A stretch of 52,188 nucleotides of DNA from Candidatus Curtissbacteria bacterium (GTDB taxonomy: Bacteria; Patescibacteriota; Microgenomatia; Curtissbacterales; GWA2-41-24), in NCBI GenBank assembly GCA_038326365.1, contig JBBQJY010000001.1:78128-130315 (forward strand), given 5' to 3'. Position numbers and translations under genes: made by a program. Below the pieces are notes generated by a model. It did no database searches. It worked only from the letters and a program-made list of their open reading frames with translations, and was not told the origin of the DNA. Below, piece after piece: positions 6,963 through 25,685 of this stretch. How positions within the stretch are numbered: the stretch's first letter is position 1; each line of letters starts with the position of its first letter.

Positions 6963-9368
6963 TTAGAAATGGACATTATAGATTTGATTATTATTCTGTC
7001 CACCGTTGTTTGTAATTGTCGTTTGGACGGGCGGTTGAGCATTTGGTGATGGTGACGGATTAGGAGAAGGTTGAACTTGCGGACAACTAACACAATAATC
7101 CCGCTTACTAAAAGCGTCATTAACAATAACCTCTTCACGCTCCTCGGCATTTGGTGAGCCGGGCGTAACCACCTGCCCTGTCGTTTTATCAACCCAAACA
7201 CGAGCCTTGGTGAATGTATCCTTCTTTGGTTCGGTTCCGGCAATGAAATATTCCACCCGGTTACTGCACGCATCGTTTTTTTGGCCGCCAGTAGTGGAAC
7301 AAATAGCGACTGCCGAAATCCCTGTCGGGGTTTTAAAGCTTTCATTGACCTTATCGTGCAAAACTTCTGTTATTATTTGATTCCAAATTGGTGTCGCTCC
7401 GGTGACACCCGAAGTTATGGCGGGATTCATCGGCTTGTTATCGTTATTTCCGACCCAAGTTGCAACCAGATAATTGGGCGTGTAACCAATCGTCCAGTTG
7501 TCGCGTTTGTCGTCGGTAGTTCCCGTTTTAACTGCCACAGTTTTGCCCTTAACAACTAGCTGGCTGGCTGGCCCAAAAGCCATTGAGCGGGCGCCATTGT
7601 CCGACAAAATCGAAGAAATCAAATAAGAAGCCTGCGGAGATAAAACCTTTTTGCCAGGGTGATCTTTTAGCTCTTCAAGTACACGGCCATGGCCGTCTTC
7701 TACCTTCAAAACGGGATTCAAATCGACCCGTTCTCCACTATTTGCAAAAACCCCGAAAGCTGTAGCCATATCTACCATTTTGACCTCCGCTCCTCCTAAA
7801 GTGAGCGAAAGTCCATAGCGAGAAGGGTCGACAAAAGTCGTTATGCCCATGTCGGTAGATTGCTTAATCATCGCGTCTAGGCCGTTTAGTGCAAGTACCT
7901 TAACTGCAGGAATATTAAAAGAATTACCCAAAGCATTTCTAACAGATACGGCTCCATGGAAACGCCCGTCATAATTTACTGGGTGATAAGGAGGTATTCC
8001 ACCAAATGTTGTTGGCACATCCAGAATAATGGTTGCCGGGGTAATAAGTTTGTGCTCAAGAGCCGTAGCATAATTGATGGGTTTGATAGAAGACCCCGGT
8101 TGTCTGGGGGAAATAGTCACGTTAACATTGCCATCATGTTCTGTATCGAAAAAATCTCGAGATCCGACCATTGCCAGGATCTCGCCGGTTTTTGGCTTAG
8201 TCACAACAGCGGCACCGTTGCCAACATTAAATGATTTTAACTTATCAATGTTATCTGTCACTATTTTCTGTACTTTTTCCTGTAGATTAAGATCCAGCGT
8301 CGTTGTTACCTTAAGGCCTCCTTGTGCGGCGTAAGTTTCACCATATTTATCGGCCAAATATTGGCGCACAAACATTACAAAATGTGGTGCACGGATATTC
8401 ACAAGCGCGCTCTTATAAACAAGCTGTTCGGCCAAAGCTTTTTCTGCCTCCTCACGTTTTATATATCCGTCTTGAACCATCCTGTTCAAAACCTGCTTTT
8501 GTCGCGCCTTTGCCCGAGTTGGGTCTCCAAAAGGTGAATAGTAACTGGGTGCCTGAGGTAAACCGGCAAGAAGAGCAGACTCAGCAAGATCTAAATCTTT
8601 AACGTTTTTGCCAAAATATTGCTCAGCTGCTGCCTCAACTCCAAATGCTGTCCCGCCATAGGGTACTTGGTTTAAGTACATTTCAAGTATTTTGTCTTTT
8701 GGAAATGCCATCTCCACCCGAAAAGCCAGGTAAAGTTCTTTCGCTTTTCTTGAAACTGTCCGCTCAGGGCTGAGAAAGACACCTTTGACAAGCTGTTGAG
8801 TAATGGTTGAACCTCCCTGAACTTCTTGCCCAAAAACCGTCTTACTGAAAGCTCTTAGGATACCGTAAATATCAAATCCCTTGTGTTTGTAAAAATCTTT
8901 ATCCTCTATAGCAATTGTGGCGTGTTTTAGGTTGTCGCCAATCTCAGAAAGGGGAACTAGAGTCCTGTTTTCATTTGTGTAGACATTAAAAAGAAGTTGA
9001 TTATTCCTGTCGTAAATCTTAGTTGTTTGCGCCAAAGACCTATTGTCTAAGAACTTAGGACTAGGCAGATCTTTCGTAAAGAACCAAATTGCAACCAAAC
9101 CCAAGAAAATTGTTAATAACCCTACCTTAAAGCTGCGCTCTTGGCGAATTATAGAGTGACTCATCACGTGTCTAATTCCCCGCACTGGAGCAGTTTTCAG
9201 AAGATCCAAATTTACCTTTTTGAAAATTGCAAAAATAGCTTTAAAAAATTGTTTGAAAGACCAAATTGTAACGTCACCGATGAAGGAGACCAGCCGAATA
9301 AACCAGGTCAAAATACCTATAAAAAATCCAAGTATTTTAAGCGGTATTTTTAAAATCGTCTTTCCCAT
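6963..9368 (-). CDS. Class A penicillin-binding protein (transglycosylase/transpeptidase, PBP1A-like)
   Basis: GT51 motifs EDKDFYKHKG, GGSTITQQLVK, RKAKE and YLNQVPYG; transpeptidase motifs SSIK, SFN and KTGT. Confidence 0.95.
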   Translation of the reverse strand: MGKTILKIPLKILGFFIGILTWFIRLVSFIGDVTIWSFKQFFKAIFAIFKKVNLDLLKTAPVRGIRHVMSHSIIRQERSFKVGLLTIFLGLVAIWFFTKDLPSPKFLDNRSLAQTTKIYDRNNQLLFNVYTNENRTLVPLSEIGDNLKHATIAIEDKDFYKHKGFDIYGILRAFSKTVFGQEVQGGSTITQQLVKGVFLSPERTVSRKAKELYLAFRVEMAFPKDKILEMYLNQVPYGGTAFGVEAAAEQYFGKNVKDLDLAESALLAGLPQAPSYYSPFGDPTRAKARQKQVLNRMVQDGYIKREEAEKALAEQLVYKSALVNIRAPHFVMFVRQYLADKYGETYAAQGGLKVTTTLDLNLQEKVQKIVTDNIDKLKSFNVGNGAAVVTKPKTGEILAMVGSRDFFDTEHDGNVNVTISPRQPGSSIKPINYATALEHKLITPATIILDVPTTFGGIPPYHPVNYDGRFHGAVSVRNALGNSFNIPAVKVLALNGLDAMIKQSTDMGITTFVDPSRYGLSLTLGGAEVKMVDMATAFGVFANSGERVDLNPVLKVEDGHGRVLEELKDHPGKKVLSPQASYLISSILSDNGARSMAFGPASQLVVKGKTVAVKTGTTDDKRDNWTIGYTPNYLVATWVGNNDNKPMNPAITSGVTGATPIWNQIITEVLHDKVNESFKTPTGISAVAICSTTGGQKNDACSNRVEYFIAGTEPKKDTFTKARVWVDKTTGQVVTPGSPNAEEREEVIVNDAFSKRDYCVSCPQVQPSPNPSPSPNAQPPVQTTITNNGGQNNNQIYNVHF

Positions 9369-11427: not shown

Positions 11428-14400
11428 ATGCAAATCGTGGCTGGCCTACTCCAAGATCTAAATCCACAGCAAAAAGAAGCCGTAACTACGACCGAAGGCC
11501 CTCTTTTGATAATTGCTGGTGCCGGAACCGGGAAGACAACGGTTATTGCTAAAAGGATTGCCGCTATCATCGAGAAAAAACTGGCCAAGCCATCCGAAAT
11601 TTTGGCACTGACTTTTACCGATAAAGCAGCAGGGGAGATGGAGGAACGAGTAGACCAGCTGGTGCCCTATGGTTTCATTGATACTTGGATTTCCACTTTT
11701 CATGCCTTTGGCGACCGAATCCTACGAGATAATGCTTTTGATATTGGCTTGTCTCCAGACTTCAGGGTTCTATCTCGCCCACAACAAGTTCTATTTTTTC
11801 AGCAAAATCTTTTCAGGTTCGATCTAGCCCATTACCGACCGCTTTCCAATCCAACCAAATTTATTTCCGCAATTCTTTCATTCTTTTCTCGTCTCAAAGA
11901 TGAGAATATCGATCCCGAAGAATTTTTAACATTCGCAAAAGATGGCAACCTAAAAGCAAAAAATGAAGAAGAAAAAATCGAATCAGACAAGTGTTTAGAA
12001 CTAGCCTACGCTTATCAAAAGTATGAAAAATACAAAGACGAAGCCAGCGTTTTAGATTTTGGCGACCAGGTTATAAAAGCCATATTTCTATTCACCAAAT
12101 GCCCAGACATTCTTAAAAAATATCAACAGCAGTTTAAATATGTTTTAGTCGACGAATATCAGGACACGAACTTTGCTCAAAACGAACTAGTCACACTGCT
12201 TGCATCCAGCCATCAAAATATCTGCGTGGTGGGCGATGATGATCAGTCAATTTATAAGTTCCGGGGAGCAGCAGTTGCCAACATCATGGAATTTAAAAAA
12301 AATTTTCCCAAGGCAAAACAAGTTGTTCTTGTTGAAAATTATCGCTCCACTCAAGCCATTTTGGACAGCGCTTATAAACTAATTAAACATAACGACCCAG
12401 ATAGGCTGGAGGTTCAAAACAACATAATTAAAAAATTAAAATCGGCAAAAATTCTATACGGACAGCCACCTCAAGAAATTTATACAAATACAATCTCCGA
12501 AGAAGCAGATGCAGTTGCTGCCGAAATCGAAAAACTGATTTTTAAAAAATTAAAGACAGCATCCAAAAATCAGAATCCAAAATCCAATTATTCGTACCGA
12601 GATTTTGCGATTCTTGTTCGTGCAAATTCTCAAGCTGACCATTTTCTGCGCGCCTTAAATATGAGAGGAATTCCTCATAAATTCGTAGGGTCAACCGGCC
12701 TCTATTCTCAAAGAGAAGTTAGCGTTCTCATTTCGTTTCTAACGGCTATAACCAATTTCGAAGACAGCTTGAATCTCTACAGCTTGGTAACGAGCGATAT
12801 TTACAACTTACCACCGGTCGATGCCATCAAAATAATTTCATACGCCAAAAGAAAAACCCGGTCTCTTTACACTATTTTAACGTCACTAGAGAAAATCGCC
12901 GAAGGCGAGCTTGAAATTTCTGAAGAGTCAAGGGCGATTGTGGCAAAATTACTCGAGGACCTGAATGAAGCGATAGAACTTTCTAAATCGGAAAAGGCAG
13001 GAAGAATCTTATACAACTATTTAAAGAAATCGGGTTATCTCACACGTTTGGATCGCGAGGGCCAGGTCGATAGTCAAATTAAGATTCAAAATATTGCCAA
13101 ATTTTTTGAAAAAATAAAAGAGTTCGAACAAATAGCTAAAGTAGACTCGCCGCAGCAGTTTATCGATTATCTAGAAGCAATTCGTTCCGCCGGCGATGAT
13201 CCTGCCACAGTTGATTTTGATCCGGACACCGACGCAGTCAACGTTATGACAGTCCATGGTGCCAAAGGCTTAGAGTTTCCTGTTGTTTTTATGGTAAACC
13301 TTGTTTCTGATCGATTTCCGACAAGAGCCCGCCCAGAGGCAATAGAAGTGCCGGAAAAAATCATTCGCGAAGCTCTGCCAACTGGCGATTGGCATCTTCA
13401 AGAAGAGCGCAGACTTTTTTATGTCGGTGTGACGCGGGCAAAGGATTTGTTGTACTTCACATCATCACGCGATGTCGGGGGCAGACGAATTAAAAAAATT
13501 TCCCCATTCGTTTTAGAAGCTCTAGACAAATCTCAAGCATCGCGAGGGTCCTCCAAGCTTTCTCCGATTGAAAAAATCGAAAAGTTTGCACCACCGACGC
13601 AGCAAATTTCACAAACAGCACTTTTCGACGTTGACGTACTCAGGCTAACCCAAGGGTCAGTAGACGACTATTTAACCTGTGCTTTTAAATATCGCTATAT
13701 TCACGTTTTGAGACTTCCAATCCTGCGTCATCACGCCATAGTTTATGGAGCCGCACTGCACGCTGCCGTTGCAGCCTTTAACAATTCAAAAAAACAGGGA
13801 AAAATTATATCTCTGGCAAAGCTTTTAGAAGTATTCGAAAACGCTTGGGATAGCGAAGGTTTTTTAACGGTCGAGCATGAGGAAAAAAGGAAAATGCAGG
13901 CTAAACTTACTCTTTCCGAGTTTCACAACCGCGAAACCAAATCGCCGGATGTTGCAACGCTTGTGGAACAGCCTTTTAAGTTTTCTCTCGCAGGCGTAAC
14001 CCTGATTGGTCGTTTTGATAGAGTGGACATCGCCCCCGGGTCTAAAGTTACAATTATCGATTACAAGTCCAGCGAGAATATCAACCAAGATCGAGCAAAC
14101 GCCCAAGCCAAAGAATCCACTCAACTTTCACTTTACTCACTATATTATTTCAAAAAACACAAAATAATCCCTCAAAAAGTCATGTTATATTTTTTGGAAA
14201 CTGGGATAACGGGAGAGTATTCCCCAACACAAAAAGATTTGGATAAAACCGAAACGCTTATCCTGGAAACTGCTCAAAATATCCGTCGCGACACTAAAAA
14301 TAATCATTTTCCTGCAAACCCTAAGTATTTCGGCCGCGAACCTGCCTGTGTCTATTGCGCGTACAATTCCATCTGTCCATTTAGCCTTGCCAAGATGTAA
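11428..14400 (+). CDS. UvrD/AdnB-like SF1 helicase fused to a C-terminal RecB/PD-(D/E)xK nuclease with 4 Cys
   Basis: AGAGTGKT, LTFT, VDEYQD, VGDDDQSIYKFRGA, ENYRS, TVHGAKGLEF and EERRLFYVGVTRA; C-terminal GRFDRVD..IIDYKS; Cys in YLTCAFKY and CVYCAYNSICP. The true start may be GTG 11437. Confidence 0.9.
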   Translation: MQIVAGLLQDLNPQQKEAVTTTEGPLLIIAGAGTGKTTVIAKRIAAIIEKKLAKPSEILALTFTDKAAGEMEERVDQLVPYGFIDTWISTFHAFGDRILRDNAFDIGLSPDFRVLSRPQQVLFFQQNLFRFDLAHYRPLSNPTKFISAILSFFSRLKDENIDPEEFLTFAKDGNLKAKNEEEKIESDKCLELAYAYQKYEKYKDEASVLDFGDQVIKAIFLFTKCPDILKKYQQQFKYVLVDEYQDTNFAQNELVTLLASSHQNICVVGDDDQSIYKFRGAAVANIMEFKKNFPKAKQVVLVENYRSTQAILDSAYKLIKHNDPDRLEVQNNIIKKLKSAKILYGQPPQEIYTNTISEEADAVAAEIEKLIFKKLKTASKNQNPKSNYSYRDFAILVRANSQADHFLRALNMRGIPHKFVGSTGLYSQREVSVLISFLTAITNFEDSLNLYSLVTSDIYNLPPVDAIKIISYAKRKTRSLYTILTSLEKIAEGELEISEESRAIVAKLLEDLNEAIELSKSEKAGRILYNYLKKSGYLTRLDREGQVDSQIKIQNIAKFFEKIKEFEQIAKVDSPQQFIDYLEAIRSAGDDPATVDFDPDTDAVNVMTVHGAKGLEFPVVFMVNLVSDRFPTRARPEAIEVPEKIIREALPTGDWHLQEERRLFYVGVTRAKDLLYFTSSRDVGGRRIKKISPFVLEALDKSQASRGSSKLSPIEKIEKFAPPTQQISQTALFDVDVLRLTQGSVDDYLTCAFKYRYIHVLRLPILRHHAIVYGAALHAAVAAFNNSKKQGKIISLAKLLEVFENAWDSEGFLTVEHEEKRKMQAKLTLSEFHNRETKSPDVATLVEQPFKFSLAGVTLIGRFDRVDIAPGSKVTIIDYKSSENINQDRANAQAKESTQLSLYSLYYFKKHKIIPQKVMLYFLETGITGEYSPTQKDLDKTETLILETAQNIRRDTKNNHFPANPKYFGREPACVYCAYNSICPFSLAKM

Positions 14401-14444
14401 GCGTTTCTCAGCATATTTAAGGCTATTCTTGATAGAATAAACCT

Positions 14445-16028
14445 ATGCTGGTAAAGCTTTTCGGCAATGCACGCTTTTATGTTTTGATTTTAAGCGTTTT
14501 TGCAGCAAGCTCAATTTTTCTCTTAGTCAGAAATATTGAACCACAAGGTCAACAGCAAGTAGTCAAGCTCACTCAGTACTACGCTTTCTCAGCAATTATT
14601 TTTTTATATTTTGCACTTCTTATTGGTCCAGTTACTAAGGTTTTAGCAGCCATTCCTGTTCGACTAAAGTCCCAGCTGATCCATGTTAGAAGACCACTCG
14701 GTGTAAGTGCTTTTTTCTTTGCGATACTCCACGCGTCTTTTGCCTTTTTTGGTCAACTTGGAGGACTTAGTGGCTTATTCTTTTTATCTGAAAAATATTT
14801 GTTCGCAATTTCATTAAGCTTCACTGCGCTTGTTATCTTGTCGCTCATGGCAGCAACGTCATTCGATTTCATGATTCAGAAACTCGGCTATGGACGCTGG
14901 AAAGCTCTGCACAGATTCGTTTATTTGGCAGCAATATTAATAGTTACCCACGCTTTGCTTTTAGGAACCCACTTCGCAGACATTTCAGCACTAATACCTC
15001 AAATTTGCTTAATTGCGCTTGTTGTCCTTCTCTTTTTCGAAGCGCTAGCAATAGATTTGTATGTGAAAAATCGCTATAAGATATTGCCTAAATTTGGTTT
15101 TGGGTTTGTCGTATTTCTAATTATTTCCGTCGTGGCGATTTTTTATCAATTATCTTCAGGGTCAAATTCAAACGGGGGAGGAGGTTTCGGTATTCATTCA
15201 CAACACATTCTGCTTGCCCAACAAGCACAGAATCCCACCTCTACTTTGTCGACAAGCTTGCAAAACGTGCCGGGCCTGACGGGTGATCGCACCAAAAGAT
15301 TCACAGTAAGTTTTAACCATTCTGATCAAATCGCGGCAAATCTCGACACCAATCTTTCGTTCCAAATTTTCGACGCCGCAAGCGGTAACCAAATTCAAAT
15401 TTTCGACGTAGTTTACGAAAAAACAATGCATCTTGTAATAGTCGACGAGGGCCTCGACTATTACAATCACATCCACCCCACTCAAGATTCAAAAGAATTT
15501 TCAATAACCACCCAGTTCCCTCATGATGGTGTATACCATTTGTACACCGATTTCCAACCAAAAGGGGCAATCGAACAGCAAATAGGATTCACTTTAAGAG
15601 TTGGCAGCTCCAATCAGGAATTAAGATCAAACCATACGCCCGATATAAATCTGACGAAAATGTTTGGTGACTATGAAGTCACCTTAACAAAACCGGACAA
15701 CTTAAATGCAACAGACCTAGCCGTTGGCAAGCAACCTCTTAAATTTACATTTCGAGATGCCAAAACCAAAGAACCGTTAACAAATCTCAAGCCATACTTG
15801 GCTGCTTTCGGCCATCTGGTCATGATAAATTCTGACACTTTGGATTACATTCATGTTCATCCGACAAATATAAAACCACCAAGAGCAGATGCCACTGGAG
15901 GTCCCGATGTCGAATTTTTACCCCTTGGTCTCTATGGTCCAATTAAACCTGGCATATATAGAGTCTTTGGGCAATTTAATCCTAATGGCAACTTAATGGT
16001 TGCGGATTTTACGGTGGAAGTTAAATGA
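14445..16028 (+). CDS. MsrQ/YedZ-like ferric-reductase transmembrane domain fused to a C-terminal His-rich (HxHP x2) soluble domain
   Basis: RRPLG...AILHA, AATS, WKALHRFVY and VTHA (haem-ligand His pattern). The C-domain repeats MHLVIVDEGLDYYNHIHP and GHLVMINSDTLDYIHVHP. Confidence 0.8.
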   Translation: MLVKLFGNARFYVLILSVFAASSIFLLVRNIEPQGQQQVVKLTQYYAFSAIIFLYFALLIGPVTKVLAAIPVRLKSQLIHVRRPLGVSAFFFAILHASFAFFGQLGGLSGLFFLSEKYLFAISLSFTALVILSLMAATSFDFMIQKLGYGRWKALHRFVYLAAILIVTHALLLGTHFADISALIPQICLIALVVLLFFEALAIDLYVKNRYKILPKFGFGFVVFLIISVVAIFYQLSSGSNSNGGGGFGIHSQHILLAQQAQNPTSTLSTSLQNVPGLTGDRTKRFTVSFNHSDQIAANLDTNLSFQIFDAASGNQIQIFDVVYEKTMHLVIVDEGLDYYNHIHPTQDSKEFSITTQFPHDGVYHLYTDFQPKGAIEQQIGFTLRVGSSNQELRSNHTPDINLTKMFGDYEVTLTKPDNLNATDLAVGKQPLKFTFRDAKTKEPLTNLKPYLAAFGHLVMINSDTLDYIHVHPTNIKPPRADATGGPDVEFLPLGLYGPIKPGIYRVFGQFNPNGNLMVADFTVEVK

Positions 16029-16600
16029 AAAATTTCCTGATTTTCCTCTTAGTATTTCTTGTGGGCTTTCAAATTTCTATCCGGATCGCGTCGGCTCACG
16101 TTTTGGTTTCTCAAGGATCGATTGGAGCTGTTTTACATATCGACCCCCAAGATGATCCTATAGCTGGTTCCCAAAGTGGTTTCTTTTTTGAATTTAAAGA
16201 TAAACAAAACAAATTTAAACCAGAGAATTGCAACTGCACTTTTGAAATTTGGGAAAATGGGCAGCAGATTAATAGTCAGGACCTCTTTGAATCAAATACA
16301 AACCCTTCCCTTACCAGTGCCAGCATTTTCTTCACATTTCCTCAAAAAGACGTATATCAAATCAAAGTTGTTGGCAACCCTAAAACTGTCAGCGCTTTTC
16401 AGCCCTTCACACTAACCTACAATATTCGAGTAGCTAAAGAAGTTGCCCAGAATCAGCTTACGAACAATCCTAACCAAACCAACTTCTTTAATAAATATGC
16501 CCCGCTTTTATTATCTGCATTTGTGGCCGCTTTCATCATAATTGTTTATTTAATCCAGCAAATGGTATTTAAAAAAAGAAAGGAGGTGCAAAATGATTAA
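16025..16600 (+). CDS. Exported, C-terminally anchored hypothetical protein with mature N-terminal His
   Basis: Signal peptide ASA|H25; LHIDPQDDP; NCNC; C-terminal TM plus KKRK; ATGA overlap with the upstream gene. Confidence 0.75.
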   Translation: MKNFLIFLLVFLVGFQISIRIASAHVLVSQGSIGAVLHIDPQDDPIAGSQSGFFFEFKDKQNKFKPENCNCTFEIWENGQQINSQDLFESNTNPSLTSASIFFTFPQKDVYQIKVVGNPKTVSAFQPFTLTYNIRVAKEVAQNQLTNNPNQTNFFNKYAPLLLSAFVAAFIIIVYLIQQMVFKKRKEVQND

Positions 16601-17282
16601 AAAAGTAATTTCCTCTGCAGGCATAATTGCTGCAATGATAGCCTTATCATCACCTGTTTTTGCTCATTCCATGGTTAAACCAGATACAGTTGGCGTGGCC
16701 GCTTTTCAGGACTTCACTGTCTCTGTCCCTTCTGAAAAAGCAGCTTCAACGATAAGTGTCAATTTGACGCTCCCTGCGGGCATATCTTTTGTGACTCCGG
16801 TTGTGAAATCGGGCTGGAAAGTGGAAGTTAAAAGTGGGCCTATCCCAGATGGAATGGCTCCGCCAGTTGCTACTGACGGTGATATAGCAACAACAATCCC
16901 AACAGAGATAGATTGGACAGGCGGATCAATACCAGCAGAGCAAAAGGACAACTTTGTCTTCAGCGCTCAAGTACCCGCACAGCCAGCAGAATTAGACTGG
17001 AAAATTACACAAGGCTACTCGGATGGTTCTACTGTTTCTTGGAATCTAGGGCCGAATGACTCTCAACCAAAAGACGATAAAGGCAGCTCAGACTTTTCCT
17101 CCCAGGGCCCATTTACCAAAACTATGGTTGTTAACGATTTAAAAAACGCGCAACCAACTACGTCGACACTAGAAAAAGAAGATGCACCGGGTTCAACAAA
17201 GATTGCCTTAGTCTTAAGTGGCTTAGCAATACTTGCAGCCGGGGGGTCTCTTTGGATGCAATTTAAAAAGAAGGGCAAGTAA
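16593..17282 (+). CDS. YcnI/DUF1775-family copper-binding membrane protein
   Basis: VFA|H25, VPSE, GWKV, IDWTGG, F.F.A and QGYSDGSTVSW motifs; C-terminal TM; strong SD AAGGAGGTG upstream. Confidence 0.8.
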   Translation: MIKKVISSAGIIAAMIALSSPVFAHSMVKPDTVGVAAFQDFTVSVPSEKAASTISVNLTLPAGISFVTPVVKSGWKVEVKSGPIPDGMAPPVATDGDIATTIPTEIDWTGGSIPAEQKDNFVFSAQVPAQPAELDWKITQGYSDGSTVSWNLGPNDSQPKDDKGSSDFSSQGPFTKTMVVNDLKNAQPTTSTLEKEDAPGSTKIALVLSGLAILAAGGSLWMQFKKKGK

Positions 17283-17304
17283 GTTTCTATATTTAGAACT
17301 TAAG

Positions 17305-17343
17305 TTTAAGGGGCAGTTGTGCAAAATACACCTGCCCCTTAAA
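17305..17343. other. Strong intergenic stem-loop (mRNA stabiliser or partial terminator)
   Basis: Perfect 12-bp inverted repeat TTTAAGGGGCAG / CTGCCCCTTAAA, plus inner TGTG/TACA pairing; no clear U-tract. Confidence 0.7.
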
Positions 17344-17353
17344 ATATCAAAGT

Positions 17354-18226
17354 ATGAAATTATGGCACGTTTTATCAACTCTGGCTTTTGTAATGTTTTT
17401 CATGCTCCCCGCAAAAGTTCAAGCACATTCTGTTGGCCAACCGCCATTTTTCAGAGTAAATAGCATATTCTCAGGCTATTATCCGACACCTCTCGTTTCT
17501 AATAAGTTTGAAATTCCTCAAGACATAGCCCCTCAAAATTACGTGGTCGGAAACAAAATCAACCTTGAGATAGATTCTCAGGCTCTTTCTCAATCAGTGC
17601 CCGCTGACATCGTTAAAAAAACAACCTTTACCTGGGATTTCGGAGACGGCCAAAAAGCGACCGGACTTCAAAATCCTCATGTTTACACAAAGCCCGGGCC
17701 TTTTATTTTAAAAATAAATGCAAAGTACGATGAAGTCTCCGGCCAGCAATTGATTCAATCTATTTTGATCAATGTAATTCCAGATGAAAATTACCAAGTC
17801 CCGAAAGTAGAAATTAGAATTAATGGAAAAACAAGCAAAGATCCTCTAATTGATATTTTTTATATTCCTTTTTCTGAAAAAATAAATTTTGATGCTACAG
17901 GCTTGCAGTCTCAGTCAAAAATTATTAAGTATATGTGGGATTTCGGAGACAGCCAATATGCCGAAGGTCCTTCAGTTACACATGCGTATTCCAAAGATCT
18001 GCCTCAGCAGCAAGTGTTTCCTATCCTGAGAGTAGTCTCCCAAGATGGTTTTTTTACAGACAGTTATGTTCAAATCACAAATAGTCATGATAGTTCAAAA
18101 GCGACATCGACCACTAGCACCTCAACGGCCGCGCCCCCATTTTACAAATCAAAATGGCTTTACCTTTTGTCTCCTTTTGTACTTATTTTGTTAATTGGTT
18201 TCTTTGCAAGCCGCAAGAAAAAATGA
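17354..18226 (+). CDS. Exported PKD-domain protein with mature N-terminal His and C-terminal TM anchor
   Basis: VQA|H25; two WDFGD PKD signatures, each followed by HxY; Ser/Thr linker; TM plus RKKK. Confidence 0.8.
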   Translation: MKLWHVLSTLAFVMFFMLPAKVQAHSVGQPPFFRVNSIFSGYYPTPLVSNKFEIPQDIAPQNYVVGNKINLEIDSQALSQSVPADIVKKTTFTWDFGDGQKATGLQNPHVYTKPGPFILKINAKYDEVSGQQLIQSILINVIPDENYQVPKVEIRINGKTSKDPLIDIFYIPFSEKINFDATGLQSQSKIIKYMWDFGDSQYAEGPSVTHAYSKDLPQQQVFPILRVVSQDGFFTDSYVQITNSHDSSKATSTTSTSTAAPPFYKSKWLYLLSPFVLILLIGFFASRKKK

Positions 18227-18315
18227 GAATTGTTTTTGCCGCACTTTTATTTCTAAGCGTTATTGCCATAATTTTCTTAGGATATAAAATCTACAAAACT
18301 TATCACAATAAATAA
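18223..18315 (+). CDS. 30-aa single-TM small protein
   Basis: MRIVFAALLFLSVIAIIFLGYKIYKTYHNK*. It overlaps the upstream stop (ATGA) and the downstream start (TAATG). Confidence 0.65.
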   Translation: MRIVFAALLFLSVIAIIFLGYKIYKTYHNK

Positions 18316-18839
18316 TGTTAATTGTAATTGGGCTAATTCTTTCTGCAGTAACTATCGCACTTTTGTTTGTCATTCTTCTTGGCGTCTTTTACGCCATCGA
18401 TGTCTTTTTAGAGCTCCCATACGTTGCCAGCAAAAAAGATAAAGTTTCGACAATAATTGAGTTGGCCCAAATTAAAAAAGGGGAGACAATTGTTGATCTC
18501 GGCTCGGGTGATGGTCGTCTACTTTTTAAAGCCGTCGAAAAAGAGGCGTTCGCAATCGGTTATGAAATAAATCCTTTTCTCATTTTATTAACAATAATTA
18601 GATCACAGCTCAAAGGTGTAGCCGGCCACGTCGAAATTTATAAGAAGAGCCTTTGGCGTGCGGATCTTAAAGTCGCCGATATTGTTTTTGTTTATGGTCG
18701 CAAAAAAACTATGAAAAAATTCGAAGATTTTGTTTATAAAAATGCCCAAGCGGGTACGCGAATAATCGTTAACACTAACCCTTTTCCAGATAAAAAACCT
18801 GTAAAATCAAAAAATAACACCTTTGTATATAAAATATAG
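18315..18839 (+). CDS. Membrane-anchored class I SAM-dependent methyltransferase (FAM173/aKMT-like)
   Basis: N-terminal TM; PYV, VDLGSGDGRL, GYEINP and ADIVFVY motifs. Confidence 0.85.
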   Translation: MLIVIGLILSAVTIALLFVILLGVFYAIDVFLELPYVASKKDKVSTIIELAQIKKGETIVDLGSGDGRLLFKAVEKEAFAIGYEINPFLILLTIIRSQLKGVAGHVEIYKKSLWRADLKVADIVFVYGRKKTMKKFEDFVYKNAQAGTRIIVNTNPFPDKKPVKSKNNTFVYKI

Positions 18840-19018
18840 CCCATAGCAAGCAATCGCACTAAGGGAAGGTAGAGAAGAAAGAATTAGAGCTCTTGAAGAA
18901 CTTTGGCAAGATCGTCCACATCATATTCAACAAAAGGGGCTCTATATTACTATTCTAGGTTTCCCTCTATTTTTATTTGAGAAATTCTTGAGATTAAAAG
19001 TTAGTTGTGCAGCAACGT

Positions 19019-19594
19019 TCAAGCGTAGGAAGCTTGACCAATTACTTTAACTTTTTCCTTAAAGTCCGGCGTTTGCAGCTTAGTCAGATCAATGTCGTAT
19101 CTTGCGCTAACCATTAAGCCTTCAATAATTCGCCTACCCTCCTCAGCGACAGAGTGCTTGAGGTATTTAACAACAATAGGCTGAGAAACCATAGCTGCAT
19201 CTGACACTATAATGTCAGAAAATAAAATTCCCGCATGCACTGTAACGTGCGCTAAATTCTTTATTAAAAAAGAGTGAACTTTTTCCGAAAATAATTCTCG
19301 CTTTTTAATATCAATTTGATTCACGTTTACAGCAATCTCGTCGGGAAACAAGTCGAAAGGGTAAAAAGAAGTCGCCTGGAAAAGGACCTGATTCGATTTA
19401 TCAATCAAATCGCTAAACTTTTTTTCCATTAACTTCTTCTGTTTAAAAAACTCTTCTTGCCCTTGTCTGTCTCCCATAGAGGGTGGTGTGACGTTTGGTT
19501 CTGTTCTAGAGCTTTGAAACGAACTGTTCGAGATCTGATCACCAGGGCTCGAGTCATCGATATAAGGCCACAAGCTAAAAGAAGTATCTTGCAT
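19019..19594 (-). CDS. Hypothetical protein (possible bacterial PH-like domain)
   Basis: 191-aa ORF with a TAAAAT box 6 nt before the ATG; beta-rich core starting FPFDLFP-like. Confidence 0.6.
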   Translation of the reverse strand: MQDTSFSLWPYIDDSSPGDQISNSSFQSSRTEPNVTPPSMGDRQGQEEFFKQKKLMEKKFSDLIDKSNQVLFQATSFYPFDLFPDEIAVNVNQIDIKKRELFSEKVHSFLIKNLAHVTVHAGILFSDIIVSDAAMVSQPIVVKYLKHSVAEEGRRIIEGLMVSARYDIDLTKLQTPDFKEKVKVIGQASYA

Positions 19595-21390: not shown

Positions 21391-22092
21391 TTACTGGCGC
21401 GGCTGTTGCGTCTGCGTGCTCCTCTGCTGCAAATTTGGTGTAACGGCTCTCTTTTTCTTAACATAATCATAAATCAAAGAGCCTACCTCAAGAACTGCAA
21501 AAATTCCAGCATAAATACTCCACACGCTGGTTATTTGAAGCGCCGTATGAATGGCTAGCGACCAAACGGCTACGTACACGAATCTGTGCAAGCGTTTCCA
21601 CCATTTGCCCAGCCTTTTTACGGAATAATTATTGGATGTTAAAAACATAAAAAAGAAAATAGACAGGGCAATTGTGCCAAATATTTCAAATCCAACCGGA
21701 AGTGATATTGGATAAGCACCCGAAATCATCGGGAAAAACCGAATAAGAGCATAGTGAGAAAGACCCAGTAAAAAAACTGTTATGCCCAATTGCCGTCGAA
21801 AAAGCGTAATAAGCCGGGTAATTTTAATCTCAATTTTGAATCGACCCAAAATTCCTGGCAAAATAACAATCCCTAAAAGGATAAGTGCTGCCTGGCCGAA
21901 ATTTTTACCAATTGAATAGACTAGATAGTACAAATCGCTGTGAGTTAAGTTGATGTACAAACCGACAAGCATCGCTCCTGCCCAAACAAAATAGACAAGC
22001 GGGAACAATTTAATCAAAAATGGGCTTTTTCTCGCAAAACTTTCAAAAACCTTCGTCTGCCAATCTTTTTCAATTGGCACAATTTGATCCAT
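21391..22092 (-). CDS. Stand-alone MsrQ/YedZ-like ferric-reductase transmembrane protein
   Basis: RRQLG...LSHY, LTSN, WKRLHRFVY and AIH; about 6 TMs. Confidence 0.85.
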   Translation of the reverse strand: MDQIVPIEKDWQTKVFESFARKSPFLIKLFPLVYFVWAGAMLVGLYINLTHSDLYYLVYSIGKNFGQAALILLGIVILPGILGRFKIEIKITRLITLFRRQLGITVFLLGLSHYALIRFFPMISGAYPISLPVGFEIFGTIALSIFFFMFLTSNNYSVKRLGKWWKRLHRFVYVAVWSLAIHTALQITSVWSIYAGIFAVLEVGSLIYDYVKKKRAVTPNLQQRSTQTQQPRQ

Positions 22093-23894: not shown

Positions 23895-25685
23895 CTAAAT
23901 TGATGAAATTAATTCTTCCGGTACATCAATTACAAATCGAGAGACTAAATTAGAAGAAGTTGTCCCGAAATAAAGTCGTTGAGTTGCATAGGTTAGATAA
24001 AGTTTTTCTTTAGCACGGGTCATTCCAACATAAGCTAGTCTTCGTTCTTCCTCCACCTCGGCGATGTCCAGCATTGCCCGAGAATGAGGGAACAAACCCT
24101 CCTCCATTCCAATTAAAAAAACATCCTCAAATTCCAAGCCCTTGGCCGCGTGAATCGTCATCATCGTTACAACATTTGGATTCTCTTGGTTTTCAAAGTC
24201 CTTATTAGGTGTCGTTTTTCCTTCCATCAGAGCCACGTTTTCCAAAAACAAATTAATATCTTCAAAATCAGTTGCAACTGACCTTAACTCCTTCACGTTT
24301 TCTACCCGCATTAAGCCCTGTTCTGTGCCGTCGTCAATTAACTTGAGGTAATTTGTTGCCTCAAGTAAAGCATCTATCATTTCAATCGTCGGGATTTTAG
24401 CCTCCTCAATTTTAAGTGCAATTTTGTCTCGAAATGTTAAAAAATCTATAAAGCGTTTCTTGCCCAGTTTTTCAATCCGACTTGTAGCAACCCGGTCTTT
24501 CGGGTTACAGATTATCCTCAAATACGAAAGTACGTCTTTGATTTCACGGCGTGCATAAAAACGTACTCCGCCGTAGAGCCTGTAAGGAACGTTGGCGTGC
24601 AAAAATCCTTCTTCTATTGTCCTGCTTTGAGCATTAGTTCGATACAAAACAGCAAACGCTGAAAATTGTTTGGTGGAATTCAAAATTCTGTCTACTACAA
24701 AATTCGTTTCATCAATTTCGTTTTGGGCGTTGTAAATTGTAATCTTTTCCCCGTCGGTGTTTTCTGTCCATAAATTGAGAACTGGATGAGCCTTATTTTT
24801 TGATATCACCGCATTTGCAGCTGACAAAATGTTTTGCGTCGATCTGTAGTTTTGTTCCAAATTAAATATTTTGGCCTCGGGGTAATCGCGCTCAAAATTT
24901 AAAATGTTTCTAAAGTCTGCGCCCCGAAAAGAATAAATTGCTTGCGATGCATCACCAACCACCGTCAAATTTCCGTGTGCTGACGACAGAAGTTTTGTAA
25001 GCTGATACTGGCTCGTATTTACATCCTGATACTCATCTACTAAAACATATTGAAATCTACCGGTGTACTTGGACAAAACATTTGGATAGGTGTTAAAAAG
25101 CAGCACAGTCTTATAAAGAAGGTCATCAAAATCACAAGCAGACATTTCCTTAAGTTCCTGCTCGTAAACTTCATAGACGGCAGATACGGTTTCTGCAAAA
25201 TATCCTCGTGCAAATTGTTTGTATTCTTCCGCCGACAACAATTCTCCTTTGGCCGAAGAAATTGAACCCAGAATTGAACTCGGCCTAAAATTTTTGGTCG
25301 AAATATTAAGATCTTTCATAATGCGTTTGATAAGCGATATGCAATCATCGTCATCGAAAATAACATATACCGAAGGAATACCGATAAATTTTCCGTCCGC
25401 TCGCAACAGCTTTGCACAAAAAGCATGAAATGTGCCTACATATGGCAACTCCCCGCGAGATTTTAGAAGCTTGGCAATTCGCTCCTTCATCTCATTTGCA
25501 GCTTTATTGGTGAAAGTAACAGCCAGTATTGATCCAGGGCTTATGCCTTTTTCAATTAAGTGCGCTACTTTATAAGTCAAAACCCGAGTTTTGCCGCTAC
25601 CTGCACCGGCCAAGATTAAAATAGGCCCTTCGGTTGCCACTACAGCCTCTTTTTGTTTGGGATCAAGGTCCGAAAGCAGATTCAT
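23895..25685 (-). CDS. pcrA: ATP-dependent DNA helicase PcrA/UvrD (no C-terminal Tudor-like domain)
   Basis: AGAGSGKT, VTFTNKAA, VDEYQD, QAIYSFRGAD, QNYRS, TIHAAKGLEF and EERRLAYVGMTRA motifs. Confidence 0.93.
   Translation of the reverse strand: MNLLSDLDPKQKEAVVATEGPILILAGAGSGKTRVLTYKVAHLIEKGISPGSILAVTFTNKAANEMKERIAKLLKSRGELPYVGTFHAFCAKLLRADGKFIGIPSVYVIFDDDDCISLIKRIMKDLNISTKNFRPSSILGSISSAKGELLSAEEYKQFARGYFAETVSAVYEVYEQELKEMSACDFDDLLYKTVLLFNTYPNVLSKYTGRFQYVLVDEYQDVNTSQYQLTKLLSSAHGNLTVVGDASQAIYSFRGADFRNILNFERDYPEAKIFNLEQNYRSTQNILSAANAVISKNKAHPVLNLWTENTDGEKITIYNAQNEIDETNFVVDRILNSTKQFSAFAVLYRTNAQSRTIEEGFLHANVPYRLYGGVRFYARREIKDVLSYLRIICNPKDRVATSRIEKLGKKRFIDFLTFRDKIALKIEEAKIPTIEMIDALLEATNYLKLIDDGTEQGLMRVENVKELRSVATDFEDINLFLENVALMEGKTTPNKDFENQENPNVVTMMTIHAAKGLEFEDVFLIGMEEGLFPHSRAMLDIAEVEEERRLAYVGMTRAKEKLYLTYATQRLYFGTTSSNLVSRFVIDVPEELISSI

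What the first reader, a model, noticed from the sequence alone, without database searches (positions are those of the whole stretch)
14445..18839. Top candidate: six-gene surface copper/metal redox-and-capture operon with three different His1 proteins
Seen: six co-oriented genes, mostly overlapping (ATGA 16025, 8-nt overlap 16593, ATGA 18223, TAATG 18315). Three consecutive, otherwise dissimilar exported proteins share the same design: a 24-aa signal peptide ending ASA, VFA or VQA, His at residue 25 (mature residue 1), a soluble domain and a C-terminal TM with basic tail. They follow a haem-type MsrQ-like membrane domain fused to a double HxHP domain, and precede a 30-aa TM peptide and a membrane-anchored methyltransferase. 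Established: a free N-terminal His forms Cu-binding histidine-brace sites in CopC, LPMOs and YcnI. The YcnI Glu (VPSE) and Trp (VSW) appear retained. YcnI usually sits with a CopC/CopD (YcnJ) importer, which is not present here. Inference: a membrane-tethered relay in which the reductase supplies electrons to, or reduces Cu(II) on, an array of His-brace proteins for metal scavenging, detoxification or oxidative chemistry at the host surface. The 16025 and PKD proteins would be new His-brace families. I do not know of a described system with this composition.
Basis: partly seen in the sequence, partly recalled or inferred. Interest (0 to 1): 0.85.

Follow-up and report, generated by a model that had tools for sequence, protein, structure and literature searches.

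The report
Haem reductase plus N-terminal-histidine metal cassette
A tiny-genome bacterium carries a widely conserved but undescribed four-gene surface module that joins a haem membrane reductase to three tethered metal-binding proteins, most likely to capture and reduce copper outside the cell.

Summary
The six co-oriented genes, their overlaps and the three "signal peptide then His" proteins are real. Only four genes form a conserved unit.

- **g1:** a ferric-reductase-domain (FRD) haem protein fused to two external Ig-like domains, each with three conserved His. These belong to a divergent YtkA-like family.
- **g2:** a new family with invariant His1 and His14.
- **g3:** a YcnI/DUF1775 protein that keeps His, Glu and Trp.
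- **g4:** a PKD protein.

In 80 metagenome loci anchored on g2, g1 lies upstream in 64 of 69 testable loci. g3 lies downstream in 48 of 66, and g4 is present in 21 of 42. The 30-aa peptide and the methyltransferase are not conserved neighbours. His1 is invariant in g2 (119/119) and g3 (44/44) but not in g4 (21/28; Asn in 6).

Relatives of the g1 external domains are fused to a Cu-type P-type ATPase, HMBD and cupredoxin domains. Natural PKD–FRD–YtkA fusions also exist. Recurrent neighbours are ZIP, Fur-family and ABC-3 metal-uptake genes, and once a blue-copper protein. The genome has no CopD and no P-type ATPase, but it has cupredoxins.

Best reading (about 0.5): an extracytoplasmic copper capture-and-reduction relay for uptake or metallation. 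Reductive iron uptake is the main rival. I found no published description.

The parts
14445..16028 (+). g1, 527 aa. It has seven hydrophobic segments with an FRD/MsrQ-like haem domain, then a linker with conserved His251, then two external YtkA-like Ig domains.
   Evidence: PF01794 matches residues 49-167 (E 7.7e-10, 39.3 bits, cut-off 28). The MsrQ NCBIfam model scores 50 bits, below its cut-off of 130. Kyte-Doolittle analysis gives seven hydrophobic segments. In 76 full-length homologues H96 is kept in 74, H169 in 73 and H251 in 74.
15300..15602 (+). g1 external domain A (about aa 286-386), with conserved His329, His342 and His344 and Pro345 (motif H-x12-H-x-H-P).
   Evidence: The AF2 model of aa 271-527 has pLDDT 96.1 and pTM 0.92. 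The best structural match is CrdA 9ll2 (Z 10.8, rmsd 2.0, 94 residues aligned), only slightly above generic Ig domains at Z 10.0.
15654..16022 (+). g1 external domain B (about aa 404-526), with conserved His457, His470 and His472 and Pro473.
   Evidence: It is a tandem copy of domain A (BLASTP E 1e-4).
16025..16600 (+). g2, 191 aa: signal peptide ending ASA, mature His1 (His25), a beta-sandwich, a C-terminal TM helix and a basic tail. It belongs to a new family.
   Evidence: There is no Pfam or NCBIfam family, and 0 of 66 homologues hit YtkA. Invariant residues are H25, G34, H38, P41, D43, P45, D59, C69, C71 and Y111. The AF2 model has pLDDT 89.6 with strands 26-30 and 33-40 forming a hairpin. 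hhalign against the g1 domain family gives probability 69% and E 4.4e-5.
16593..17282 (+). g3, 229 aa: a YcnI/DUF1775 protein with His25 (mature His1), Glu48, Trp150 and a C-terminal TM anchor.
   Evidence: PF07987 scores 78 bits against a cut-off of 25. It aligns to 7me6. All 44 distinct homologues keep A24, H25, E48 and W150.
17354..18226 (+). g4, 290 aa: signal peptide ending VQA, His25, a conserved GQPPFF N-terminal segment, two PKD domains and a C-terminal TM anchor.
   Evidence: PKD_4 scores 64.2 bits. The alignment of 17 sequences is. The variable +1 residue is shown. It occurs fused to FRD plus YtkA-like domains in P0250 and P0235.
18223..18315 (+). g5, a 30-aa hydrophobic ORF. It is not a conserved part, and it is not established that it is a gene.
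   Evidence: The ORF lies within 18154-18315. No comparable small hydrophobic ORF follows g4 in the 25 g4 ORFs with enough downstream sequence, from the 28 in other loci.
18315..18839 (+). g6, 174 aa: an N-terminal TM helix plus a class-I-like SAM methyltransferase. It is not a conserved part.
   Evidence: All matches are below cut-off: Methyltransf_31 at 23.3 bits against 27, and archaeal protein-lysine methyltransferase at 36.9 bits against 200. It was found near the cassette in 1 of 82 loci, on the opposite strand.
14424..14439 (.). The palindrome TATTCT-TGAT-AGAATA, 5 nt upstream of the g1 start codon. It may be an operator, but this is unproven.
   Evidence: It is the only exact TATTCT-N4-AGAATA in the 965,833-base genome. 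It is unlike the ATGCAA-N-TTGCAT repeats upstream of the Fur-family genes.

Best explanation
The region encodes an extracytoplasmic copper capture-and-reduction relay tethered to the cell membrane.

Shown:
- g1 is an FRD/MsrQ-type haem-b membrane protein. A seventh hydrophobic segment would place two YtkA-like Ig domains outside the cell, each with a conserved H...HxH triad.
- g2 (new family, invariant His1 and His14), g3 (YcnI with the His/Glu/Trp mono-His-brace residues) and often g4 (PKD protein, usually His1) follow g1 as one conserved cassette.

Inferred mechanism:
- The His1 proteins capture Cu(II) tightly through the free amino terminus and the imidazole.
- The haem carries electrons across the membrane.
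- Reduction to Cu(I) loosens the metal. It is then passed through the three-His YtkA-like sites, and perhaps the g2 CxC pair.
- The final acceptor is either a neighbouring importer (ZIP or an ABC-3 type in relatives) or surface cupredoxins.

The 30-aa ORF and the methyltransferase are not part of the module.
For: **Synteny.** In 80 metagenome loci anchored on g2, g1 lies directly upstream and co-oriented in 64 of 69 loci with at least 300 nt of flank. g3 lies downstream in 48 of 66. g4 is present in 21 of 42. g1 is full-length in 29 loci and FRD-only in 7. Similar orders occur in 8 of 10 loci taken from genomes of the phylum.

**Natural fusions.** P0250 joins a signal peptide (A|H), PKD, FRD and the tandem domain. 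P0235 has the same layout, although no Ferric_reduct match was listed for it.

**Links to copper:**
- g3 keeps the His, Glu and Trp that bind Cu(II) in solved YcnI (PMC8424229, passages read).
- Among 62 remoter members of the g1 tandem-domain family, YtkA PF13115 matches 9 (best E 1.8e-15), HMBD 11, Cupredoxin_1 4 and Ferric_reduct 16.
- One further member is fused to an HMA plus CPC-motif P-type ATPase through an extra hydrophobic segment.
- YtkA/CtaK is implicated in CuA assembly, and the YtkA domain ends YcnJ (PMC13344008 and PMC12362106, passages read).
- In L018 a cupredoxin with H...C-x-P-H-x-x-M lies directly upstream of g1-g2-g3.
- The best structural match for both the g2 model and the g1 domain model is the copper protein CrdA (Z 10.6 and 10.8). 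PmoD scores 9.7.

**Genome context.** There is no CopD, no E1-E2 ATPase, no Cu-oxidase_3 and no COX2. There are three Cupredoxin_1 ORFs, one with a full type-1 ligand set. Copper is therefore needed outside the cell only.

**Haem ligands.** H96 is kept in 74 of 76 full-length homologues and H169 in 73 of 76.

**FRD-g2 pairing.** Complex prediction gave weak support: score 0.35 (runs 0.45, 0.35, 0.34) against a best control of 0.01.
- The mark was reached by 58 of 80 solved complexes and 2 of 110 mismatched pairs.
- At 0.60 or under it was reached by only 7 of those 80, and by both mismatches.
- The runs agree in at least 58% of contacts, and the partner pLDDT is at least 73.
Against: - No metal was measured, so copper is inferred from relatives and fusions.
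- The most recurrent neighbours are generic divalent-metal uptake genes. Among 114 flanking ORFs from 32 loci, Zip matches 6, FUR 4 and ABC-3 3.
- The Fur-family proteins score nearer Fur/PerR than Zur, and all are below cut-off. This fits iron or zinc as well as copper. ZIP transport of Cu(I) is not established (recalled).
- His1 of g4 is Asn in 6 and Asp in 1 of 28 locus ORFs.
- In this genome ZIP and Fur lie on another contig. No shared operator was found.
- Structural matches to copper proteins stand only about 0.6-0.8 Z above unrelated Ig domains.
- Cupredoxin_1 is common in the phylum, in 239 of 401 genomes (a tally that includes unpublished G154). It is not visibly enriched in the g2-bearing genomes, where it occurs in 8 of 10.
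- The cytoplasmic electron donor and the haem source are unknown.
- The cassette is rare: g2 was found in 10 of 401 sampled genomes.
Confidence: 0.5

Rival explanations
1. Reductive iron uptake. The FRD reduces external Fe(III) to Fe(II) for import by a ZIP or ABC-3 transporter. The tethered proteins would bind iron, or would bind copper as accessory sites as in P19/FetP-type systems.
For: - ZIP lies directly upstream and co-oriented with g1 in L013, L124, L144 and L149.
- In L016 a ZIP gene lies next to g2 on the same strand, and in L015 Fur and ZIP sit beside g3-g2 on the opposite strand. Fur-family genes are adjacent in several loci.
- The Fur-family proteins score best against Fur/PerR models, although below cut-off.
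- MsrQ-like clusters with VIT1 have been proposed as assimilatory iron reductases (PMC8238504, passage read).
- P19/HftA/Tp34 iron-copper proteins appear among the structural matches at Z 8.1-8.9.
- The plant FRO2-IRT1 pair is an FRD plus a ZIP (recalled).
Against: - YcnI is a characterised Cu(II) binder, and its ligands are invariant here.
- The tandem-domain family is fused to a CPC-motif ATPase, HMBD and cupredoxin domains, not to iron proteins.
- One locus has a blue-copper protein adjacent.
- An N-terminal amine-imidazole chelate favours Cu(II) (established chemistry, recalled).
Confidence: 0.2
2. Surface copper sequestration or detoxification. The array binds and reduces or buffers copper outside a cell that has no copper exporter.
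For: - The genome has no E1-E2 ATPase.
- The best fold match is the copper resistance determinant CrdA.
- The tandem domain is fused to a copper-type exporter, and HMBD domains occur in relatives.
Against: - The neighbours are importers and Fur-family repressors, not efflux or resistance genes.
- Reduction to Cu(I) would raise toxicity unless it is coupled to a sink.
- B. subtilis YcnI acts in acquisition (PMC13344008, passages read).
Confidence: 0.1
3. Capture of zinc or another non-redox metal by the His-rich tethered proteins. In this reading the FRD serves another purpose, such as keeping the CxC thiols reduced.
For: - ZupT-like ZIP genes and cluster A-I substrate-binding proteins (best matches AdcA, AztC and MntC, all below cut-off) lie beside the cassette.
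- The two-domain zinc-capture protein Zcp appears among the Foldseek matches (PMC12663993, abstract seen in the listing).
Against: - The Zcp match is weak (TM 0.24-0.27).
- The FRD-g2 pairing is the tightest link in the cassette (64 of 69), which argues for redox chemistry on g2.
- The YcnI ligand set is copper-type.
Confidence: 0.08
4. In this reading the His-brace proteins are LPMO-like oxidases or peroxygenases fed with electrons by the FRD, and they act on host or cell-wall polymers.
For: - N-terminal His is conserved.
- A dedicated electron source is present.
- PKD domains often accompany carbohydrate-active proteins (recalled).
- A chitin-binding LPMO-like domain (3uam) appears at Foldseek rank 28.
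Against: - The 3uam match is weak (TMq 0.30, rmsd 8.0).
- g2 is a small Ig-like sandwich nearest to copper chaperone-like proteins.
- YcnI is not an enzyme as far as is known.
- No glycoside hydrolase or carbohydrate-binding genes recur nearby.
Confidence: 0.06

Closest known systems
Bacillus subtilis YcnKJI copper acquisition system (YcnI plus the CopC-CopD-YtkA protein YcnJ)
   Same: - Both have a membrane-tethered YcnI with His/Glu/Trp.
- Both have YtkA-like external domains at the C-terminus of a polytopic membrane protein.
- Both have a second N-terminal-His protein or domain beside YcnI (CopC there, g2 here).
   Different: - The membrane part here is a haem FRD, not CopD, and no CopD was found in the genome.
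- g2 is not a recognisable CopC.
- There is no YcnK.
- The B. subtilis authors state that no reductase is known to be associated with YcnJ (PMC13344008, passage read).
MsrPQ (MsrQ haem membrane protein feeding the periplasmic MsrP)
   Same: - The FRD fold is the same, and the His pair is conserved.
- A dedicated external partner gene lies next to the FRD gene.
   Different: - g1 scores 50 bits against the MsrQ cut-off of 130.
- The partner is a small His1 beta-sandwich, not a molybdoenzyme.
- g1 has an extra TM segment and two external domains.
Eukaryotic Fre/FRO/STEAP metalloreductases working with Ctr or ZIP importers (recalled)
   Same: - An FRD-type haem reductase on the outer face is coupled to metal import.
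- ZIP genes lie next to g1 in several relatives.
   Different: - g1 has no NAD(P)H/FAD domain.
- The cassette has tethered His1 proteins.
- It is bacterial.
CcoG cupric reductase (cited in PMC13344008; the paper itself was not read)
   Same: Both are membrane redox proteins proposed to reduce Cu(II) for cuproprotein biogenesis.
   Different: CcoG uses iron-sulfur clusters rather than haem (recalled). It has no YcnI or His1 partners.
MsrQ-like flavinylation-associated clusters proposed as assimilatory iron reductases (PMC8238504)
   Same: In both, a PF01794 protein sits in a metal-assimilation gene cluster.
   Different: - Those clusters carry ApbE, FMN-binding and VIT1 genes.
- That paper has 0 occurrences of copper, DUF1775 or YtkA.
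CrdA (H. pylori), PmoD, and P19/Tp34/HftA Ig-like metal proteins
   Same: These are the best fold matches for g2 and for the g1 external domain.
   Different: - Sequence identity is 6-12%.
- There is no sequence-level relation.
- The ligand sets differ.

Membership tests
DUF1775 / YcnI (g3) | Pfam PF07987 match above the gathering score | tested here: met
   78 bits against a cut-off of 25, E 1.2e-21
DUF1775 / YcnI (g3) | Mature N-terminal His plus Glu and the second-sphere Trp (mono-His brace) | tested here: met
   H25, E48 and W150 align to the 7me6 residues. All three are kept in 44 of 44 cassette homologues. Cleavage itself was not tested.
DUF1775 / YcnI (g3) | Binds one Cu(II) | not testable with these tools
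   This needs ICP-MS or EPR.
YcnKJI-type system | CopC-CopD importer encoded beside YcnI | tested here: not met
   PF05425 has no match in the 99.9%-complete genome. No CopD family appeared among the 25 most frequent families in 114 flanking ORFs.
FRD / MsrQ-like (g1 N-terminus) | PF01794 match and a conserved haem-ligand His pair in two TM helices | tested here: met
   39.3 bits against a cut-off of 28. H96 is kept in 74 of 76 and H169 in 73 of 76. The second pair is variable: H156 in 48 of 76 and H80 in 12 of 76.
MsrQ proper | NCBIfam equivalog score, and an MsrP partner | tested here: not met
   50 bits against a cut-off of 130. I did not search for MsrP.
YtkA-like PF13115 (g1 external domains) | Pfam match | tested here: inconclusive
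   The window's own protein has no match at E <= 0.1. Nine of 62 remoter family members match, best E 1.8e-15.
Histidine-brace copper proteins (g2) | Free N-terminal His after signal-peptide cleavage | tested here: met
   His follows an A-x-A-type site in 119 of 119 homologues and in distant homologues at 27-35% identity. Cleavage is inferred, not measured.
Histidine-brace copper proteins (g2) | A second His placed to complete the T-shaped site | tested here: inconclusive
   His38 is invariant. The hairpin register 26-30/33-40 would set it opposite His25. I could not read model coordinates.
LPMO (g2, g4) | LPMO fold with a flat substrate face | tested here: inconclusive
   The only hit is a weak 3uam match at rank 28.
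CopC (g2) | CopC fold or sequence | tested here: inconclusive
   There is no Pfam match. CopC 5icu appears only for the g1 domain, at Z 7.7.
His1 family (g4 PKD protein) | Invariant mature His1 | tested here: not met
   16 of 17. In 28 locus ORFs: His 21, Asn 6, Asp 1.
Class I SAM methyltransferase (g6) | Family match above cut-off | tested here: inconclusive
   Methyltransf_31 scores 23.3 bits against 27, and the NCBIfam matches are far below cut-off. A GxGxG-type motif is visible in the sequence.

The most novel reading that the evidence does not exclude
The FRD haem directly powers copper redox chemistry on a new bis-His-brace protein (g2) and its partners. In this reading the cassette is an electron-fed surface oxidase or peroxygenase, or a reactive-oxygen generator, acting on host or envelope polymers of an episymbiotic bacterium. 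It would not be merely a metal-uptake relay.
Probability: 0.07. Interest if true: 0.9.

Novelty: new variant of a known kind. Interest (0 to 1): 0.62.

Why it matters
How Cu(II) held by very tight extracellular binders such as YcnI and CopC is released and reduced is an open point. The B. subtilis work states that no reductase is known for that pathway (PMC13344008, passage read). This cassette places a haem transmembrane reductase, YtkA-like domains and YcnI in one conserved unit, with natural fusions. That gives a concrete candidate for a dedicated extracytoplasmic cupric reductase and a defined set of proteins to test.

It also adds one uncharacterised protein family (g2) with an invariant N-terminal His. 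It gives the YtkA-like tandem domain a conserved three-His motif and a copper-type fusion context. It also shows a metal-handling device in bacteria with very small genomes that have no CopD and no P-type ATPase.

Tried and rejected
- **Sequence searches of solved structures.** These gave nothing usable for g1, g2 or their family profiles. The polyubiquitin rows have no stretch that passes on its own, and I treat them as spurious.
- **Foldseek on the g1 external-domain model.** It gave only generic tandem Ig/FnIII matches. Zcp (DUF4198) appeared at TM 0.24-0.27.
- **hhalign of the g2 profile against the single g1 sequence.** Negative, probability 1.3%. Profile against profile gave 69%.
- **Genome-contig scan with the g4 alignment.** It returned mostly generic PKD proteins. 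Only L023 and L024 covered the N-terminal segment.
- **Promoter and terminator scans of 14200-19100.** Not above shuffles: 12 against 11.4 expected, and 3 against 4.5.
- **Shared operator.** I found none between g1 and the Fur-family genes.
- **Cross-tabulation with Cupredoxin_1.** No enrichment: 8 of 10 g2-bearing genomes against 239 of 401 overall.
- **Signal-peptide scan.** My first version was wrong because it took sites inside the hydrophobic core. I replaced it, and that version is still crude.
- **RNA evidence.** No RNA holder was listed for the stretch, and read laying was not used.
- **ESM Atlas.** It gave only unnamed clusters. The nearest named cluster carried YtkA on 14% of members at score 0.90. 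This is a lead only.
- **Methylation of His1 by the adjacent methyltransferase.** I considered and rejected this. The enzyme is not a conserved neighbour. Its catalytic domain follows a TM helix and a KKDK stretch, which by the positive-inside rule puts it in the cytoplasm (inference).
- **Closed sources.** Supplementary files of the papers were not opened. The neighbourhood tables of PMC8424229 and PMC8238504 could hold FRD-DUF1775 pairs that I could not see.

**Rows dropped before counts:**
- One search left out P0120, so 119 of 120 hits were used.
- A1 holds 66 of 120 hits, chosen by hand.
- A3 holds 56 of the 150 listed hits, the short and stand-alone forms.
- A6 holds 62 of the 70 proteins P0222-P0291. 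Eight short fragments were left out.
- A7 holds 63 of the 75 full-length hits.
- A4 holds 114 of 116 flanking ORFs. Two that ran past a locus end were left out.
- Five near-identical loci were skipped.
- The counts are not de-duplicated.

Full report
**What is there**

The window is part of contig C1 of a 965,833-base, 64-contig genome rated 99.9% complete. The genome is small. Sources name the homologues Candidatus Saccharimonadales, Levyibacteriota and Curtissbacteria. Together these point to the Candidate Phyla Radiation.

Six co-oriented ORFs occupy 14445-18839. I call the genes g1 to g6.

**g1 (527 aa)**

- Residues 49-167 match PF01794 Ferric_reduct above the cut-off. The match to the MsrQ equivalog is below its cut-off.
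- It has seven hydrophobic segments.
- In 76 full-length homologues His96 (74 of 76) and His169 (73 of 76) are nearly invariant. His156 (48 of 76) and His80 (12 of 76) are not.
- MsrQ-like proteins are described as having six TM helices (PMC8238504, passage read). A seventh segment should therefore place the C-terminal 257 residues outside the cell (inference).
- That agrees with the signal-peptide or lipobox-like N-termini of stand-alone relatives.
- The C-terminal part is two copies of one domain. The fold is predicted with very high confidence as two beta-sandwiches (pLDDT 96.1, pTM 0.92).
- Each copy has a conserved H-x12-H-x-H-P pattern: His329/342/344 and His457/470/472. His251 in the linker is conserved too.

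**The family of the g1 external domains**

An exhaustive search found 2,993 cluster representatives at E <= 0.001. The window's own protein does not hit Pfam YtkA. Among 62 remoter members:

| Pfam family | Members matching (of 62) |
|---|---|
| Ferric_reduct | 16 |
| HMBD | 11 |
| YtkA | 9 (best E 1.8e-15) |
| Cupredoxin_1 | 4 |
| PKD | 2 |

One further member (P0284) is fused to an HMA plus E1-E2 ATPase. Its sequence shows a CPC motif and an extra hydrophobic segment before the tandem domain. I read the domain as a divergent YtkA-like branch with a copper-type fusion context.

YtkA/CtaK is implicated in CuA assembly, and a YtkA domain ends B. subtilis YcnJ. [quoted passage not shown]

**g2 (191 aa)**

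- It has no Pfam, NCBIfam or PDB sequence relative.
- Of 120 database homologues I examined 119. All have His directly after an A-x-A-type site, although the length of the signal peptide varies.
- His38, Asp43, Pro41, Pro45, Cys69, Cys71 and Tyr111 are invariant as well.
- Homologues at 27-35% identity keep His1 and the second His. One distant group lacks the CxC pair.
- The AF2 model (pLDDT 89.6) is a beta-sandwich followed by a TM helix. Strands 26-30 and 33-40 form a hairpin whose register would set His25 opposite His38.
- Profile-profile comparison suggests a remote relation to the g1 external domain (probability 69%, E 4.4e-5).
- Both models have the same best structural match, the copper protein CrdA. 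For g2 the match has Z 10.6, rmsd 2.6 and 101 aligned residues. For g1 it has Z 10.8, rmsd 2.0 and 94 aligned residues.
- PmoD scores 9.7 and P19-type proteins 8-9. Unrelated Ig domains score up to 10.2, so the fold alone proves little.

**g3 and g4**

g3 is a YcnI/DUF1775 protein. His25, Glu48 and Trp150 align to the copper-site residues of solved YcnI. They are kept in 44 of 44 distinct cassette-linked homologues.

g4 has two PKD domains behind a conserved N-terminal segment (H-x-x-G-Q-P-P-F-F). His1 is found in 16 of 17 database homologues. In 28 locus ORFs it is His in 21, Asn in 6 (N-G-A-G-L-P-x-F-F) and Asp in 1. One locus carries both kinds side by side.

**Conservation of the gene set**

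g2 was found in 10 of 401 sampled genomes of the phylum, so the cassette is patchy. In 8 of 10 genome loci g2 sits next to an FRD gene, a YcnI gene, or both. In 80 metagenome loci anchored on g2:

| Neighbour of g2 | Loci with it / loci testable |
|---|---|
| g1 upstream, co-oriented | 64 / 69 |
| g3 downstream | 48 / 66 |
| g4 present | 21 / 42 |

g1 is full-length in 29 loci and FRD-only in 7. P0250 is a single chain of signal peptide (A|H), PKD, FRD and the tandem domain. P0235 has the same layout, although no Ferric_reduct match was listed for it. These fusions tie g4 to g1.

The methyltransferase recurs once in 82 loci, on the other strand. No small hydrophobic ORF follows g4 elsewhere. 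The conserved unit is g1-g2-g3(-g4). FRD-g2 is the tightest pair.

A structure-based pairing test of FRD (residues 1-262) with mature g2 gave weak support only.
- The score was 0.35 against a best control of 0.01.
- The mark was reached by 58 of 80 solved complexes and 2 of 110 mismatched pairs.
- At 0.60 or under it was reached by only 7 of those 80, and by both mismatches.
- The runs agree in at least 58% of contacts, and the partner pLDDT is at least 73.

**Context**

Among 114 ORFs flanking the cassette in 32 long loci, the most frequent families are Zip (6), FUR (4) and ABC-3 (3).

- ZIP lies directly upstream and co-oriented with g1 in four loci.
- A Fur-SBP-ABC operon abuts the cassette in others.
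- In L018 a cupredoxin with a complete type-1 ligand pattern lies directly upstream of g1.
- The Fur-family proteins and the substrate-binding proteins cannot be assigned to a metal, because all scores are below cut-off.

The window's own genome has no CopD, no E1-E2 ATPase, no Cu-oxidase_3 and no COX2. It does have three Cupredoxin_1 ORFs, one with H...C-x-P-H-x-x-M. Its Fur-ZIP pair sits on another contig.

**Interpretation**

I favour an extracytoplasmic copper capture-and-reduction relay, with confidence about 0.5. The evidence for it:

- the conserved YcnI copper ligands;
- the copper-type fusions of the YtkA-like domain;
- the invariant N-terminal His of g2;
- the tight FRD-g2 pairing;
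- the uptake-type neighbours.

The steps from "binds copper" onward are inferred. The neighbours fit iron or zinc about as well, so reductive iron uptake is a serious rival (0.2). Surface detoxification (0.1), zinc capture (0.08) and LPMO-like chemistry (0.06) follow.

**Novelty**

The parts are mostly known families, but the combination is not described in what I could search.

- No paper holds both "YcnI" and "ferric reductase".
- The MsrQ-like survey does not mention copper, DUF1775 or YtkA.
- The listed papers of a histidine-brace/CPR search held neither 'histidine brace' nor 'DUF1775'.

I rate it a new variant of a known kind: copper trafficking by YcnI/YtkA-type proteins, here driven by a haem reductase, plus one new protein family.

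Noticed in passing
window 21391-22092 (-): A second, stand-alone FRD/MsrQ-like gene of 233 aa (PF01794, E 3.3e-10) lies 2.5 kb downstream on the other strand. It has no obvious partner gene beside it.
   Followed up: partly
window 14424-14439: The palindrome TATTCT-TGAT-AGAATA lies just upstream of the g1 start codon. It is the only exact TATTCT-N4-AGAATA in the genome.
   Followed up: partly
window 17310-17338: A GC-rich hairpin (GGGGCAG...CTGCCCC) sits in the 71-nt gap between g3 and g4. It has no T-run after it and was not called by the terminator scan.
   Followed up: no
G000 contig C28 (L188 1474-1902 and 749-1492, minus strand); also L015, L117, L146: A Fur-family gene overlaps a ZIP gene. 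Its promoter carries an ATGCAA-N-TTGCAT inverted repeat, and similar repeats precede the Fur-family genes of three related loci. This may be an autoregulatory operator.
   Followed up: partly
L133 about 8460-8654: A 64-aa ORF lies right after g4. It has a signal peptide ending VQA, then His, a short ectodomain, a TM helix and a basic tail, so it has the same design as the larger proteins in miniature.
   Followed up: no
L184 1378-1767 and 1719-2156; L183 616-1038 (own genome, contigs C35 and C9): There are three small anchored cupredoxin-like proteins. One has a full type-1 copper ligand pattern. Two lack the Cys and end in H-x-H-L-N-P. A MarR-like gene lies upstream on C35 (by eye, not tested).
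   Followed up: partly
window 11428-14400 (+) and 23895-25685 (-): Two UvrD/PcrA-like helicase genes flank the region (by eye from the translations; no family search was run).
   Followed up: no
L029-L102: Most genome contigs matches to the g4 alignment are generic PKD proteins from many phyla. Two records that carry the true g4 N-terminal segment (L023, L024) are titled 'uncultured Gammaproteobacteria', which sits oddly with the other source names.
   Followed up: no
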